From: a virus
Lineage: Duplodnaviria > Heunggongvirae > Uroviricota > Caudoviricetes
Reading direction: 5' to 3' (one strand)
Length of the DNA: 47,972 bases
Virus record (IMG/VR): IMGVR_UViG_2531839374_000006
Positions within the stretch are counted from its first letter, which is position 1, and every line of letters begins with the position of its first letter. Positions 12,001 through 18,000 of the stretch are shown here, piece after piece. The position numbers were made by a program.

Positions 12001-15000
12001 GTCTCAATATCGTAGAGTCCTGCCGTGGTACGCATCCTTTCAAGCGTTTCCAGCACATTCGTCCGCGAGGTGGTGGAAAAATTTGTCAGGTTCGGGACGG
12101 ATCCGGAAAAGGCCGTCCACCCCTCTACAGTGAAAGTCACATGCAGTTCCGGCGATCTCTGGATTTTATTAAAGGTGGTATAAGCCCCCTGCTCCACGGG
12201 GACGGTGGAAACAGAAGCCTCCGCGCCCACCTCAACGACAACAAAAGAATCCGGGGAGAAAGGTTTGCCACCCTTCTGATGGGCACCTGCCGGATCATTC
12301 CGTGCGTAATAAATACCGAATGACGGTGCCAGTACACTGTTAATGAGTCCCAGGACACCGCCGCCACGAACCGCACTCAGTACGTTACTTTCACTGAGCG
12401 AAAAGTTATTCAGGGAAATATTATCGAAAGAAAAACTCATCCTGTTACCCCGCTGGAATAAACCGACACAAGCGCCGAATTCGTGATACGCCGACGTGCG
12501 TCATCGGTAATACCCTTCACATTGTCCGACGTTGTGGTGACATTCAGTGTCCCGATATGCGTGGTTTCCGTTACGGTGGACTGCGATACAGGCGCAGGAT
12601 GGCGCGACCGTATGGCCATTGCCGCACCCGGATAAGGCAGGTTCGCCAGCACCCGCGGAATATAGTTGCGGGTCTCCTCCGGAGCAGCAGCCAGTCCCTT
12701 ACGCTGAACATTTCCCTCTCCCCAGTTATATGCCGCCAGAGCCTTAGCCAGATCGCCATGAAAAAAACGTATCAGGCCACCAAGTTTTCTCGCGGCGGCA
12801 TCAGCGGCTTTTTCGGGATCAAAGGCATCGTTCCCCCTCAGACCAAATTCACTGGCCGTCTTCGGCATGAACTGAAACAGTCCCATCGCACCAGCAGGTG
12901 AGACGGCAAACTGATTACCACGGGATTCGGTGATCGCAACGCTGCGCAGCAGTCCGGGCGGCAGGTTATATTTTTCCTCCAGTTGAGACAGTTTCGGTTG
13001 CAGCCAGCCTAACAGGGCTTCCCCGGTCTTCGTCGGTCGCTGGCGGTTTTGCATGGCATTACCGAGTTTTTCCTGCGTCGCACGCATACCCTGTAGCCAG
13101 GATTCACCGAAGGCTGCTTCCCTCCCGGTTGCCTGAGAAGCCTGAGTATCCAGCATGCCCTGCTGCCATACTGTGGGTGATTGTGCCCGGGTGATGTTGC
13201 CAGGCTTTTCTCCGGCATCCAGTTTTGTCTGATACGTCTCCATCTCTTTCTTATTGAAAAAGAAAGTCCCGTCTGAAGCCCAGAAAAAACCATGTGAATC
13301 CAGCCAGTCCTTATTTTCCCTGCCAACAATGGATGTCAGTAATCCGTCAACAACCGGGTAAAGCGCCGTTATCGCAAAAAGAAGGCCTCCGGGGCCACTG
13401 AGGGCTTTTGTCAGCCCCCGCACCCATGACGCCACTTTCAGCCCGATCAGCGTAATAATGACATTCTGCCAGCCCCCCAGTTCTCCGGCAGCCTTATTCG
13501 CCAGGGAGGCCACTGACTCAACGTCATTCAGAAATGTGGTGATAAACCTGTTCACTTCCTCCGGATGTTGCTGCATCCAGTCACCGAGTGTCTCCAGCCA
13601 GTGGCTGAGCTTCAGCGCGTACGGCATCAACGCGGTGCTAATCGTCATCCCGATGCCGGACCAGGTCTGATCGAGCTCAACAAGCTCTTTTCGTAGCTTA
13701 CGGGCCAGCGCTATACGCCCCGGCGTAACCTGCGAACGGGAAGTAAATTCGTCCACATCTTTCAGCGCATGACCGGAGCCAAGAAACTGCTGTCCGGCAT
13801 AACTGAAGCCCAGCGCGTTGCCGTAGGCAGTTTGTTCGGACTTTGTCAGTCGCGGAAAAATAACCGCCAGCTTGCGCATGATGGCTTCAGTGCTGTCAGT
13901 ATTTAAATCAACACTAATGCCCGCCCTGGCTGCAACCTGAAACAAATCCTGTAACACAGGATCAAAGGACCTTCCGGCTCTGAAGGCCGCTTTTGCATTT
14001 GCAAGCCGGGAAAATGCCCCAGACATTTCCCCTTCATCAACATTATTTGCCCGCGCAGCCCGTAACCATCCGTCCAGATTTCTGGCCTTCATGCCAAAAG
14101 CATCGGATTCCACGGACAGACGGTTCAGATCACGGGCAAAACCTGTTACCAGGTTCTTCAGCCCCCCCAGCGTCAGACTGACACCCGCAAGAGCCAGAAT
14201 CTCGCTACGGATCCCTGAAAAAAAACGGGACGCCCGTTTCCCGGCATCTTCCATTCGACGGGCCGTTTTATCAGCATCTTTTCCGGTTTTTTCCAGTGAT
14301 TCACTGGTTTTCTTCTGTCCCTGACTGAATGTGTCAGCGACACCTTCCATCACCGTCGTGAGCCGGTTAAGGGCAGCATGTACTGCCTGTTCCCCGGCAG
14401 TAAAGTCCCTGTCATCAATCCCGAGGGACAGAACAAGCTCATCAAGTACCTGCGCCATTTCTGTTCTCCTGTATCACCTGTTCGTTATGGGCATCCACAT
14501 GAATTATTTCCAGCAGATCCCATAAGTCCTGCACACCAAGGACAGAATCCAGTTCAGCTTTTGAAGCCTTACCGGAGGAGATAACGGTCGCAATGGTACG
14601 GGGAACATTAACGTAATCCACCACCCCGAACGGTCTGTCGGGGTCGAGATAACGCGGGGGGATATCTAGCTGACGACGGTAGCGAAAAAATCCACATGCA
14701 GCTTAAAGACCTCCGCACGCAGATTAAGACGGGTAATGATTTCTTCAATATCCTCTTCAACAAGCGGTCTCCGGATACTGCGTTTTTTCGGATCGGGAAC
14801 AAACTGCACACAGTCCATCATTTCATCCATCAACGGACGCGCCTCATCAGGCGGAATTTTCGATAATGCTTTCAGCCCTTCAAGGGCAAGCGCAGCCATC
14901 CCCAGACTACGAACATCATCCGGTAACTCCACGCCACCACGCCCCATTGCCATAATGGCACGCATCGCCCACCATTCCGCCTGTGAGGCAGACATTTCGG

Positions 15001-18000
15001 TAAGATGAAATACCTTGCCCTTATCCCGTCCCTGACCTTCAATAGTGATAAATTTCTCTTTACGGGCCATCAGTTAAAAACCTCCGGAGTAATGGTTTCC
15101 CACTCAATAACCGCCTGCCCTGGCTGCAACGTACGAGCTGCATCAGGCAGCGCTTTCCATTGTTTGAGTACGCCATTCACGCAGGTATATTTACGGCCAA
15201 TCGCCGGAAGCAGGACGACAGCGTTACAACGGAATACAGCCCGACTGGCCCGGGATGTGGTTGACCAGGTATCAAAAATATCCCGGCTGGGGGAATCCGG
15301 CATGATATGAAACGTCTGGATAATGTTGCTGTACACAAATCCCGCGGACAGTTTACCGTCAATACCGCGGGCAGTTTCCGCCAGTACCAGTGGATCGGTG
15401 CCATAAACGTTATCTGTTGCAAATCCCTGAAGTCGTACGCCGGAGGGATACAGATTATTCACTGTCAGCGTGATAATGGCATCCGCCGCAGTGATGGTGT
15501 TGTTGTTACCCGACATTTACTGGACCTCCGTGGATGCAATAACAAGTTTCTGGATACTACCGCCGTCACAGTACCAGAGCGTACAGGACGGACTGCTACG
15601 GGTTGCCCGCAAAGAGGGAAGCATATCGCCGATATACAGGTAATAGCCGGTGGCAAACAACGTTGAAGAAACATCTGCCCCCACAACATTGTTAATCTGT
15701 TTCTTCTGCGCCTCCGTCAGTGTCACCCCTTCACGGATCCCTCCCCAGCGTTTGTACTGCTGGATAACGTCACTCATTGACGCTGCAACCAGCGCCCGCC
15801 CTTCATTGTTGTAGGGGATCGTCTGGTTTGACTTGAATAACGCGATCACCGCCCCCTGCAAACTGGCATTCAGCCAGATTTGCCCGCAGAAACTGTCCAG
15901 CCATTTAAAATCACCGGTAATAGTGCCATCCGCCCAGTAATCTTCCACCACACTGTTTTCCGCATATTTTCCGTAGAAATTGTAACCTGCGGCGATCAGC
16001 GCATCATAATCGCTGCCACTGGTAACATCAGCGGCCAGCCCCTCATACTCGCGGAACTTGAATGATACACGCCCCTCTGGTCGGACAAAATCAAGGCACG
16101 CTGCATACCCCAGTACCGCTGCAGCCCGGTTACCATCAGTCGCGAAAACAGGTACAACAGAGCTGTAGTTATTGACAGCAATTATCTGGTAAGCGATGTG
16201 TTCAGTACTGCCTTTTACTCTGGCGTTGCCGCTGGTTGTCCATGCCACATAAAAGTAACGCTTGCCCTGCCCGTTTGCCCATGCAGAAAACGCCAGGTGT
16301 TGCTCGTCAGTGACCTCAGATACCGTGGAAAAACCCGCCCATTGCTGGGAAGCGGCCTTAATGGCTGCCATTGTGTCAGGGACATCAGATACAGGCGCGC
16401 CCCGGGATATCACCGCACCGGTGTTACTGGTCATCTTCAGGAGTTCTGCTGCCGATCCACTGCCGAACGTTATCGTGGTACTCCCGGGTTTCGCCCCGGC
16501 GACAGTAATGACAAAAGCATTCTGTGTGGTATCGAATACCACTGTAGCCACTGCTGCGGTCAGCGCTGTCTGTAGTGCCGTTGCAGCAGCGGCGAAGCTG
16601 GCGACACCGTTAAAATTCACTTCAATGCTGACGCTTTTCCCGTTAATACTCAGCATCAGCGTGCCGGAAAGTTTTTGTAGCTGTTCAACAGTCGCGCCCT
16701 TAAACGAACCGCTACGTAACCAGGCCGCCGATGGGGCAGGACTGAAACGGGAAAACAACAATTGCCCCGGCGTCCTGGTGGCATTTTTGAAGCCCTGGAA
16801 ATAAAGCTGAGCGCGTGCGTACTCATCGGATAATGCACCAAAATACGCGGCCACATCATCCGGAGAGGAAAACGGAACCACAGTGCCGACCGGAAGTAAC
16901 GGATTACTGGTCAACAGCAGGCCGTTAAGATCGACGGCATTACCCGCCACAGCCAGCACACCGGGATTTATCTGTACATCTTTACTGAGTGGAATTGGCA
17001 TTATCAGCCTCCGTTGTCCGGGTGATCACGTTGTCAAAAAACATCAGGGAAGTTGTGACCACAGGGTTAATCTGCATCTGAATATCAAGCGTCCAGCGCG
17101 GTTCATACTGTTGCTGACCGTTGGGGAATGTGGTGTTAAAGGGCTCTGAGCAATACAGCGGGGAAATCAGCCCACCGCCCTGCCGGAAAAGCCGTACGGA
17201 AAATTCAGACCGGAAAAGCGTTGCCAGCACCTGCGCGTTATCTGCCGCGTGAGGGCCGTAGAAATCAAGCTGGCAACGCCATTTTGTGGTACGGGTGATA
17301 TGCTGAGAGCCCTCACCAGCCTGCGCTGGCGCAGAATATGCCACTACCGCAGTGGATAATCCGGTAACATCAATGCCCGTCATAGTGATGAAATTCCCCT
17401 GAGGCATCGGGACCTGGTTCTGCTGCGTTCGTTCAATCCCGGCATCAGAAAAAAGCCCCCGGAGATAATCACCGAGGGCCTGATAAAGAGCGCTTTCCGT
17501 AACGGAGAGGGTCACACCTGAAGGCATACAATAACCCTCGTCCAGTCAGGCCAGATTTCCGGTACCTCAATCACCAGCCACGTTTCATCGCCAATAACAA
17601 ATTTATCGCCTCCCTGTTGCCGGGCACGGTTAAGCCCGCACCAGTTACCATCGGTATACAATGTGGCGAAAACTCCCTGCTGGTTAAGATTATCAAGATG
17701 ACGTAAATCAGCCTGGGTGACAGCCTGCTTTTGCACCCTGACGGAAACCGGATCTTCATACTCAGGTACGCGGGAATAATCTGCCTGCTGTGTACTCCCG
17801 CGGGAACGATAAACCAGCGCGTCTGTAAAGGGATTTACCCGACGTACTGCGCCGGAAACAATACCGTGAAAGTTCATTTTTTGCCCCCGTCTACAGAATA
17901 ATCAACGCTGTCCATCATATGTCCGGTTTCAATAAGCGGGTTGTTAAAACCCTTTTGCCGGGCAGTGGATGCAGCGTTGGGCGGACTTTCCCAGTCGCGA

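What the first reader, a model, noticed from the sequence alone, without database searches (positions are those of the whole stretch)
14442..15070. Predicted -1 programmed ribosomal frameshift in the tail assembly chaperone
The chaperone ORF ends 18 nt after a perfectly phased slippery heptamer T_TTT_TTC (codons GAT TTT TTC, plus coords 14684-14690). The -1 frame is open from there for a further ~80 codons to 14442, overlapping the tape measure start. This is the conserved G/G-T arrangement of tailed phages.
Basis: partly seen in the sequence, partly recalled or inferred. Interest (0 to 1): 0.45.

Follow-up and report, generated by a model that had tools for sequence, protein, structure and literature searches.

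The report
Tail chaperone −1 frameshift site
A prophage tail-assembly chaperone gene carries a conserved slippery T_TTT_TTC site where a fraction of ribosomes should slip back one base to make a longer second protein; this is the well-known lambda G/G-T trick, here in a phage family where databases do not annotate it.

Summary
On the minus strand, a 134-aa chaperone ORF (15070..14666) contains GAT TTT TTC, which puts T_TTT_TTC in phase at 14690..14684. The stop codon comes 18 nt later. The −1 frame stays open to TGA at 14444..14442, overlapping the tape-measure ATG at 14458.

The heptamer alone is not significant, because such motifs are common in this window. The support comes from 69 distinct relatives with 36–100% chaperone identity:
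- All need a −1 shift at the same codon to reach a conserved C-terminal domain.
- All keep an in-phase U_UU.Y tetramer, and 61 keep a full X_XXY_YYZ heptamer.
- The central Phe codon is TTT in 68 of 69, against a background of about 47%.
- The −1 product is conserved from the first residues after the slip (FFxxRRxLD), with codon periodicity in the −1 frame.
- 40 of 69 have no start codon upstream of the domain.

I found no downstream stimulatory structure. The predicted fold resembles the HK97 chaperone only moderately.

Verdict: a real programmed −1 frameshift of the lambda G/G-T type, a new member of a known kind. RefSeq and GenBank annotate it as two hypothetical proteins. Transcriptional slippage on the T6 run, which would give the same protein, is not excluded. 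Interest is low to moderate.

The parts
14666..15070 (-). Tail assembly chaperone short form ('G', TAC-N), 134 aa. The ATG overlaps the tube-gene stop (TGATG), and GGAGG lies 10 nt upstream.
14684..14690 (-). Slippery heptamer T_TTT_TTC (zero-frame codons GAT TTT TTC = D127 F128 F129).
   Evidence: Sequence. The homologous site is conserved in 69 distinct relatives: 61 have a canonical heptamer and all 69 have an in-phase U_UU.Y tetramer. The TTT codon is used in 68/69 against about 47% background. U_UU.U_UU.C is shift-prone in E. coli without stimulators (PMC4066793).
14666..14702 (-). Frameshift window: the only stretch where a −1 shift can join the two frames. It runs from just after the −1-frame TAA (14705..14703) to the zero-frame TAG (14668..14666).
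14442..14690 (-). −1 frame extension ('T'), 82 codons plus TGA. It has a basic segment FFRYRRQLD, a variable linker, and the conserved domain YVNVPRTIATVISSGKASKAELDSVLGVQDLWDLLEIIHVDAHN. Predicted G-T product: 209 aa = join(15070..14684, 14684..14442), with base 14684 read twice.
   Evidence: Translation. phrog_3976 E 6e-32. Alignment of the −1 products of 69 relatives. Codon-position entropy is periodic in the −1 frame.
14442..14624 (-). The 60-aa GTG ORF that RefSeq/PGAP annotates as a separate hypothetical protein (WP_000228829.1). Here it is interpreted as the C-terminal part of G-T, not an independent gene.
   Evidence: Annotation. No Shine-Dalgarno sequence before the GTG, and 40/69 relatives have no start codon at or upstream of the domain.
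12437..14458 (-). Tape measure protein, 673 aa, with a C-terminal lytic transglycosylase (SLT) domain. Its ATG overlaps the end of the −1 frame by 17 nt, and AGGAG lies 8 nt upstream.
   Evidence: PF01464 E 9e-26 at residues 493-598. phrog_2013 and phrog_2276. Sequence.
15070..15516 (-). Tail tube protein, 148 aa, immediately upstream.
   Evidence: PF22764 E217_Gp32 E 2e-17. phrog_1964.
15517..17001 (-). Contractile tail sheath, 494 aa.
   Evidence: PF11863 DUF3383 E 2e-140. phrog_205 'tail sheath'.

Best explanation

Most ribosomes translate the 134-aa chaperone and stop at TAG 14668..14666. A minority shift as follows. With tRNA-Phe on UUU (P site) and tRNA-Phe on UUC (A site) of U_UUU_UUC, both tRNAs re-pair one base back on UUU UUU. 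The ribosome then continues with CGC UAC CGU..., producing a 209-aa G-T protein that ends beside the tape-measure start.

By analogy with lambda, the shared N-terminal part would coat the tape-measure protein, and the T domain would recruit the tube protein. The low, fixed shift frequency would set the G:G-T ratio, and neither protein would end up in the virion.

Shown here: the anatomy; family-wide conservation of the slip site, the frame relationship and the −1-frame protein; and the absence of an independent start in most relatives.

Inferred: that the shift is ribosomal, its efficiency, and the protein functions.
For: 1. Anatomy is exactly as described. The shift is only possible within 14702..14666, and the heptamer is the only slip-prone site there.

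2. The position between the tube and tape-measure genes fits, and PHROG labels the family 'tail assembly chaperone'.

3. I analysed 69 distinct sequences: the window, 11 phage genomes from 8 host genera, and 80 IMG/VR loci, with chaperone identity down to 36%. All 69 need a −1 shift at the codon aligned with F128. The zero-frame stop lies anywhere from 10 to 37 codons after H125, whereas the −1 stop stays 69-93 codons after it, usually within a few nt of the tape-measure start.

4. Nucleotide conservation goes beyond what the protein requires. TTT is used in 68/69 where background TTT use among Phe codons averages 47% and falls to 6-30% in GC-rich loci. The preceding codon ends in T in 66/69 against 44% expected. 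61/69 have a canonical in-phase heptamer (T_TTT_TTN or G_GGT_TTY), and all keep an in-phase U_UU.Y tetramer.

5. The −1 product is conserved from its first residues (FFxxRRxLD). In the stretch overlapping the zero-frame tail, entropy by −1-frame codon position is 1.41/1.08/1.74. The most variable position is therefore the zero frame's second position, so selection acts on the −1 frame. In the domain the values are 1.06/0.71/1.69.

6. 40/69 relatives have no ATG, GTG or TTG in the −1 frame between the slip site and the conserved domain.

7. U_UU.U_UU.C is among the heptamers that shift above 0.1% in E. coli without stimulators, belongs to the efficient H_HH.U_UU.Y class, and is used by IS elements. 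U_UU.C and U_UU.U are among the few shift-prone tetramers (PMC4066793).

9. A very similar conserved GTTTTT chaperone shift was recently argued, by the same kind of comparative evidence, for Vandenendeviridae and Andersonviridae myoviruses (PMC12846349).
Against: - No product has been observed, and efficiency is unknown.
- There is no significant downstream structure in the window. The 94 nt after the site fold with z −0.04 and the first 54 nt with z −0.34. The only clear hairpin starts about 40 nt downstream, which is too far.
- There is no consensus structure among relatives and no Rfam hit.
- The chaperone has no Pfam or NCBIfam match to curated chaperone families, and the fold similarity is only moderate.
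- None of the 12 annotated records I inspected joins the two ORFs. No fused homologue appears among the top 120 database proteins.
- Eight of 69 relatives lack a canonical heptamer.
- An IS2 sits in the same tail module, so this prophage copy may no longer be under selection.
- A T6 run could also support RNA-polymerase slippage, which would give the same protein.
Confidence: 0.8

Rival explanations
1. Transcriptional slippage. RNA polymerase stutters on the T6 run and inserts one extra U in a fraction of transcripts. Ordinary translation of those mRNAs then yields exactly the same G-T protein (GAU UUU UUU CGC...).
For: The site is a homopolymer (T6). Eleven of 69 relatives have T9 and 7 have T7 at the same place. 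Runs of 9 A or T are known to give slippage in bacteria, and UUUUUUU is avoided in all frames in E. coli genes, possibly for this reason (PMC5009743, PMC4066793). The protein products cannot tell the two mechanisms apart.
Against: T6 is shorter than the runs documented to slip efficiently (9 in PMC5009743). 18 of 69 relatives have only T3-T5 at the site. 12 of those complete a G_GGT_TTY ribosomal heptamer instead (previous codon ends in G), and all 69 keep the run in the same codon phase. This fits tRNA re-pairing better than polymerase stuttering. Phase is partly confounded by the invariant Phe codon.
Confidence: 0.12
2. Two separate genes, as RefSeq annotates. The 60-aa ORF 14624..14442 would be initiated independently at GTG 14624, or by reinitiation after the chaperone stop, with no fusion protein made.
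For: PGAP and several GenBank records call a separate small CDS. A GTG exists at 14624. phrog_3976 is a family of such stand-alone calls.
Against: No Shine-Dalgarno sequence precedes the GTG. 40/69 relatives have no ATG, GTG or TTG between the slip site and the conserved domain. The −1-frame residues upstream of the GTG (RRxLD) are conserved with −1-frame codon periodicity. The slip site shows synonymous-site conservation that this model does not explain.
Confidence: 0.04
3. Chance or relic. The heptamer and the open −1 frame are coincidental, or are left over in a decaying prophage, and nothing beyond the 134-aa protein is made.
For: In-phase heptamers are common in this window (101 per 19,134 codons). 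There is no stimulatory structure. An IS2 insertion in the tail module suggests the prophage may be defective.
Against: The −1 frame encodes a domain conserved across hosts from Acinetobacter to Burkholderia. The arrangement is retained in functional, plaque-forming phages. Codon periodicity shows purifying selection on the −1 frame.
Confidence: 0.03

Closest known systems
Phage lambda gpG / gpGT programmed −1 frameshift (Levin et al. 1993; Xu, Hendrix and Duda 2004, 2013, 2014, as summarised in PMC5009743)
   Same: Two overlapping ORFs lie between the major tail (tube) gene and the tape-measure gene. [quoted passage not shown] The second frame has no start of its own and ends at the tape-measure gene. 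No strong RNA stimulator is present.
   Different: The heptamer is U_UUU_UUC rather than G_GGA_AAG. The host virus has a contractile tail. There is no detectable sequence similarity to lambda G or T, and no Pfam chaperone family matches. Product ratio and function are untested here.
Phage P2 E / E+E' frameshift in the FETUD tail operon (Christie et al. 2002; recalled from memory, including a T-rich slip site; PMC5009743 states only that P2-type efficiency is 2-3 fold higher than lambda's)
   Same: It is a contractile-tailed phage. The chaperone pair follows the sheath and tube genes and precedes the tape measure. The shift is −1 on a run of T.
   Different: No sequence relationship was found. 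The sheath here is of the DUF3383 / E217 / Pam3 type, not the P2 FI type.
Conserved GTTTTT −1 frameshift proposed for TAC-N/TAC-NC of Vandenendeviridae (Pakpunavirus Adele) and Andersonviridae (PMC12846349)
   Same: These are myoviruses, the slip motif is T-rich near the 3' end of TAC-N, the downstream piece is routinely annotated as a separate hypothetical protein, and the argument rests on an unbroken −1 frame in all relatives.
   Different: It is a different phage lineage and protein family. None of those genera appeared among the 106 phage records matching this chaperone. The family here is phrog_1932/3976: Obolenskvirus, Popoffvirus, Gofduovirus and Enterobacterales prophages.
T4-like phages, where the short and long chaperone forms are reported to come from separate genes rather than a frameshift (Vladimirov et al. 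2022, as described in PMC10885494)
   Same: Both a short and a long chaperone form are needed.
   Different: Here no relative encodes the long form as one ORF. All 69 need the −1 shift, and none of the top 120 database homologues is fused.

Membership tests
Tailed-phage tail assembly chaperone G/G-T programmed −1 frameshift | The gene pair sits between the tail tube (major tail) gene and the tape-measure gene, on the same strand. | tested here: met
   Order on the minus strand is sheath 15517..17001, tube 15070..15516, chaperone 15070..14666, −1 extension to 14442, tape measure 14458..12437.
Tailed-phage tail assembly chaperone G/G-T programmed −1 frameshift | The second ORF overlaps the 3' end of the first in the −1 frame and has no translation start of its own. 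| tested here: met
   The −1 frame is open from 14702 to 14445. The only candidate start, GTG 14624, has no Shine-Dalgarno sequence. 40/69 relatives have no start codon before the conserved domain.
Tailed-phage tail assembly chaperone G/G-T programmed −1 frameshift | An in-phase slippery sequence (X_XXY_YYZ) lies inside the overlap. | tested here: met
   T_TTT_TTC at 14690..14684. This motif is documented as shift-prone in E. coli (PMC4066793).
Tailed-phage tail assembly chaperone G/G-T programmed −1 frameshift | The slip site and two-frame arrangement are conserved among diverged relatives. | tested here: met
   69/69 need the −1 shift at the same codon. 61/69 have a canonical heptamer and 69/69 an in-phase U_UU.Y tetramer. 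Synonymous choices are biased toward T. Codon periodicity follows the −1 frame.
Tailed-phage tail assembly chaperone G/G-T programmed −1 frameshift | The first ORF is homologous in sequence or fold to known tail assembly chaperones. | tested here: inconclusive
Tailed-phage tail assembly chaperone G/G-T programmed −1 frameshift | Two products are made at a fixed low ratio, both are required for tail assembly, and both are absent from virions. | not testable with these tools
   This needs a reporter assay, mass spectrometry and genetics.
Stimulated −1 PRF signals (dnaX / IS3 type: heptamer plus downstream hairpin or pseudoknot, or upstream SD-like element) | A stable structure lies 5-9 nt downstream of the heptamer, or an SD-like sequence about 10 nt upstream. 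| tested here: not met
   Downstream folds are no better than shuffles (z −0.04 and −0.34). The nearest clear hairpin is about 40 nt away. There is no consensus structure in 43 relatives and no Rfam hit. GGAGG lies 19 nt upstream, within conserved Glu-Val codons, which is too far to count.
Programmed transcriptional slippage | A long homopolymeric A/T run (about 9 in documented bacterial cases), independent of codon phase. | tested here: inconclusive
   The window has T6. Relatives range from T3 to T9, always in the same phase, and the short runs are compensated by G_GG. The threshold is taken from PMC5009743. Settling this needs cDNA sequencing.

The most novel reading that the evidence does not exclude
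The long form might be made partly or wholly by RNA-polymerase slippage on the T run rather than by ribosome slippage. The balance could shift with run length across the family, from T9 in low-GC members through T6 here to G_GGT_TTY or a bare U_UUU tetramer in others. One conserved chaperone locus would then document an evolutionary switch between transcriptional and translational recoding.
Probability: 0.12. Interest if true: 0.45.

Novelty: new member of a known kind. Interest (0 to 1): 0.25.

Why it matters
The main value is for annotation. In this widespread family, the 3' piece is deposited as a separate ~50-80-aa hypothetical protein (phrog_3976, WP_000228829.1) or left as intergenic DNA, and the first ORF is mostly called hypothetical. 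The family includes Enterobacterales prophages, therapeutic-candidate Acinetobacter Obolenskvirus phages, and Aeromonas, Edwardsiella, Burkholderia and Pseudomonas phages. Joining the two pieces gives the correct long chaperone form and removes a spurious gene family.

The family also offers a natural series of slip sites at one homologous codon: T9, T7, T6, G_GGT_TTY, and a T_TTT tetramer only. This series could be used to study how the G:G-T ratio is tuned. It does not change the current understanding of tail assembly or of recoding.

Tried and rejected
- Close DNA matches among phage genomes: none. The window is a rare E. coli prophage, present in 9 of 5,426 complete genomes.
- Downstream stimulatory RNA: single-sequence folds of 94 and 54 nt, per-relative folds of 60 nt, an RNAalifold consensus of 43 relatives, and an Rfam scan were all negative for the window. 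Nine of 69 relatives have a GC-rich hairpin with z < −2 (mononucleotide shuffles). In several it starts only 2-3 nt after the heptamer. I did not count this as a conserved element.
- Upstream SD-like stimulator: GGAGG lies 19 nt upstream in the window and in some relatives. It sits in conserved Glu-Val codons and is too far away. Rejected.
- Heptamer significance from the window alone: rejected, because the motif is too common.
- Natural G-T fusions as 'Rosetta stone' evidence: none among the top 120 of 345 homologues. Only the phrog_18181 profile match spans the junction, and I could not inspect its members.
- Covariation of G_GG with short T runs: it is present (20/21 GGT cases follow a G). 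However, G is also frequent at that position in GAT cases (31/44), so the evidence is weak.
- A genome-contig scan with the alignment failed because no stretch was conserved enough.
- Sequence search of the PDB gave only noise.
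Full report
**1. The observation**

All features lie on the minus strand.
- An ATG at 15070 overlaps the stop of the upstream gene (TGATG) and has GGAGG 10 nt upstream. It opens a 134-aa ORF that ends with TAG at 14668..14666.
- The ORF's last codons are CTG CAT GTG GAT TTT TTC GCT ACC GTC GTC AGC TAG. T_TTT_TTC therefore occupies 14690..14684 in the X_XXY_YYZ phase, 18 nt before the end of the ORF.
- The −1 frame reads FFRYRRQLDIPPRYLDPDRPFGVVDYVNVPRTIATVISSGKASKAELDSVLGVQDLWDLLEIIHVDAHNEQVIQENRNGAGT and stops at TGA 14444..14442. It overlaps the ATG (14458) of the next gene by 17 nt.
- Upstream, the −1 frame is closed by TAA at 14705..14703. A shift joining the two frames can therefore occur only within 14702..14666, and the heptamer is the only slip-prone sequence in that stretch.

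**2. Is it more than chance?**

Taken alone, no. Mechanical ORFs of at least 100 aa in this window contain 101 in-phase XXXYYYZ heptamers in 19,134 codons. That gives about a 6% chance of finding one in a 12-codon window. The case has to rest on context and on relatives.

**3. Context**

Family searches give the following genes on the minus strand.

| Gene | Coordinates | Evidence |
|---|---|---|
| Neck terminator | 16982..17527 | PF23961 |
| Tail sheath | 15517..17001 | DUF3383, E 2e-140; phrog_205 |
| Tail tube | 15070..15516 | PF22764 E217_Gp32; phrog_1964 |
| 134-aa ORF | 15070..14666 | phrog_1932 'tail assembly chaperone', E 3e-59 |
| Tape measure, 673 aa | 12437..14458 | SLT domain (PF01464); phrog_2013 and phrog_2276 |
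| Baseplate proteins | downstream | Dit-like, Pam3 gp18, E217 gp41, a spike with an Apex motif |

- The −1 extension matches phrog_3976 (unknown function) at E 6e-32.
- The conceptual 209-aa fusion matches phrog_18181 across the junction (residues 56-198, E 5e-8).
- The window is a prophage found in 9 of 5,426 complete E. coli genomes.
- RefSeq annotates two separate hypothetical proteins and no frameshift.

**4. Relatives**

tblastn found the chaperone in 106 phage genomes, all below 60% identity. They include Acinetobacter Obolenskvirus, Aeromonas Popoffvirus, Edwardsiella Gofduovirus, and Burkholderia, Pseudomonas, Klebsiella, Pantoea and Acetobacter phages. I fetched 11 of these and 80 IMG/VR loci. 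Together with the window they give 69 distinct sequences with 36-100% chaperone identity.

- **Same shift everywhere.** In all 69, the conserved C-terminal domain lies in the −1 frame relative to the chaperone. The zero-frame stop lies anywhere from 10 to 37 codons after the conserved His125. The −1 stop stays 69-93 codons after it and usually falls within a few nt of the tape-measure start.
- **Conserved slip site.** At the codon aligned with Phe128 the sequence is always NNT TTT, apart from one GGT TTC that keeps G_GGT_TTC. 61 of 69 have a canonical in-phase heptamer (T_TTT_TTN, or G_GGT_TTY with the preceding codon ending in G). The other 8 (GAT/AGT TTT TCN, GAG TTT TTT, and GCT TTT GTA in Klebsiella phage RCIP0114) still keep an in-phase U_UU.U tetramer.
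- **Conservation beyond the protein's needs.** TTT rather than TTC is used in 68/69, where background TTT use among Phe codons averages 47% and is 6-30% in GC-rich loci. The preceding codon ends in T in 66/69 against 44% expected.
- **The −1 product is conserved from the slip onward.** It starts FFxxRRx(L/V/I)D, continues with a variable linker, and then has Y.NVP.TIATV.S..LATLHELDTVYG.EDL..LLEI..VD..N.
- **Selection acts on the −1 frame.** In 52 sequences that are non-redundant at 85% identity, nucleotide entropy by −1-frame codon position is 1.41/1.08/1.74 in the ten codons right after the slip, and 1.06/0.71/1.69 in the domain. In the overlap, the most variable position is the zero frame's second position.
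- **No independent start in most.** 40 of 69 have no ATG, GTG or TTG in the −1 frame between the slip site and the conserved domain. The window's GTG at 14624 has no Shine-Dalgarno sequence.

**5. Stimulatory elements**

- The 94 nt after the heptamer fold no better than shuffles (−23.7 kcal/mol, z −0.04). The same holds for the first 54 nt (z −0.34).
- The only clear hairpin starts about 40 nt downstream, which is too far to act on a ribosome sitting at the heptamer.
- RNAalifold on 43 diverse relatives gives no consensus structure, and Rfam gives no hit.
- Some GC-rich relatives have a GC hairpin very close to the site (9/69 with z < −2). It is not a family feature.
- Lambda-type G/G-T shifting is a low-level event (PMC5009743). 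U_UU.U_UU.C shifts above 0.1% in E. coli without any stimulator and belongs to the efficient H_HH.U_UU.Y class. U_UU.C and U_UU.U are among the few active tetramers (PMC4066793).

**6. Fold**

BFVD hits include proteins named tail assembly chaperone. This is moderate support for chaperone identity. Curated sequence families (Pfam, NCBIfam) and the PDB sequence search do not match.

**7. Mechanism and rivals**

The best explanation is tandem −1 slippage of the two tRNA-Phe on U_UUU_UUC, giving a 209-aa G-T protein (residues 1-129 plus RYRRQ...GAGT).

The main rival is RNA-polymerase slippage that adds one U in the T6 run, which encodes the identical protein.
- Against it: documented bacterial cases use runs of about 9 (PMC5009743). 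18/69 relatives have only T3-T5, and 12 of those instead complete a G_GGT_TTY ribosomal heptamer. The codon phase is constant.
- For it: 11 relatives have T9. This rival cannot be excluded without cDNA data.

Independent initiation of the small ORF, and a chance or relic origin, are each contradicted by the comparative data.

**8. Comparison with what is known, and novelty**

The arrangement is the lambda G/G-T and P2 E/E+E' paradigm (PMC5009743). A closely analogous T-rich chaperone shift was recently argued for Pakpunavirus and Andersonviridae by the same kind of evidence (PMC12846349).

For this family, none of the 12 annotated records I inspected joins the ORFs. The top 120 database homologues are all stand-alone 131-140-aa proteins or fragments of them, almost all named hypothetical. 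My literature searches found no description of the shift in these genera.

It is therefore a new, unannotated member of a known kind. It matters for annotation, and as a natural allelic series of slip sites.

**9. Verdict**

- Observation: confirmed.
- Confidence that G-T is made by recoding at this site: about 0.9.
- Confidence that the recoding is ribosomal: about 0.8.
- Interest: 0.25.

Noticed in passing
window 7552..8825 (+), heptamer starting at 7914: A complete IS2 is inserted on the opposite strand inside the tail/baseplate module. OrfA 7552..7962 matches IS2 TnpA (E 4e-83) and orfB 7920..8825 matches IS2 TnpB (E 1e-219). It carries its own classic −1 frameshift heptamer A_AAA_AAG, 15 codons before the orfA stop. 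The prophage may therefore be defective.
   Followed up: partly
window 29558..29868 (−): A cluster of four tRNA genes (Gly-TCC, Thr-TGT, Arg-TCT, Met-CAT) lies within the prophage. There is no tRNA-Phe, so I see no obvious link to the slip site.
   Followed up: no
L013 (IMG/VR UViG_2537561977_000012), about 960..1010, equivalent to window 14620..14665: This is the same prophage, with a 100% identical chaperone. It has three single-base homopolymer indels (C6 to C7, C4 to C5, GG to G) within about 50 nt of the G-T linker and no substitutions. They put the T domain out of the −1 frame. They look like homopolymer sequencing errors in a draft assembly.
   Followed up: partly
L007 (Klebsiella phage RCIP0114) 1945..1975: The homologous site is GCT TTT GTA. 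There is no heptamer, only a U_UUU tetramer, yet the −1 frame and T domain are intact. Phages of this group may rely on single-tRNA slippage or have a very low G-T level. Seven other relatives (GAT/AGT TTT TCN, GAG TTT TTT) are similar.
   Followed up: partly
L003 (Burkholderia phage phiE058) 2114..2605: An HNH homing endonuclease gene sits between the end of the −1 frame and the tape-measure gene. It breaks the usual abutment of T with the tape-measure start.
   Followed up: no
L053, L061, L071 and similar low-GC IMG/VR loci, at the homologous site: Eleven distinct relatives have a T9 run (GAT TTT TTT TTA). Their zero-frame ORF continues for 34-37 codons past the conserved His codon (His125 in the window), so the two frames overlap for roughly 30 codons. 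T9 is long enough for RNA-polymerase slippage.
   Followed up: no
window 15070..15516 (−): RefSeq names the tail tube protein 'phage tail fiber protein'. The name apparently comes from the title of Pfam PF22764 (E217_Gp32 'Tail fiber protein gp32'). Its position after the sheath gene and its size indicate the tube.
   Followed up: no
window 12437..14458 (−), residues 493-598: The tape measure protein carries a C-terminal lytic transglycosylase (SLT) domain (PF01464, E 9e-26), so RefSeq names it only as a 'lytic transglycosylase domain-containing protein'.
   Followed up: no
E. coli genomes: The 1.3-kb query has 2-4 matching places in most of the 9 positive genomes. Those strains may carry additional partial or related copies of this tail module.
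   Followed up: no
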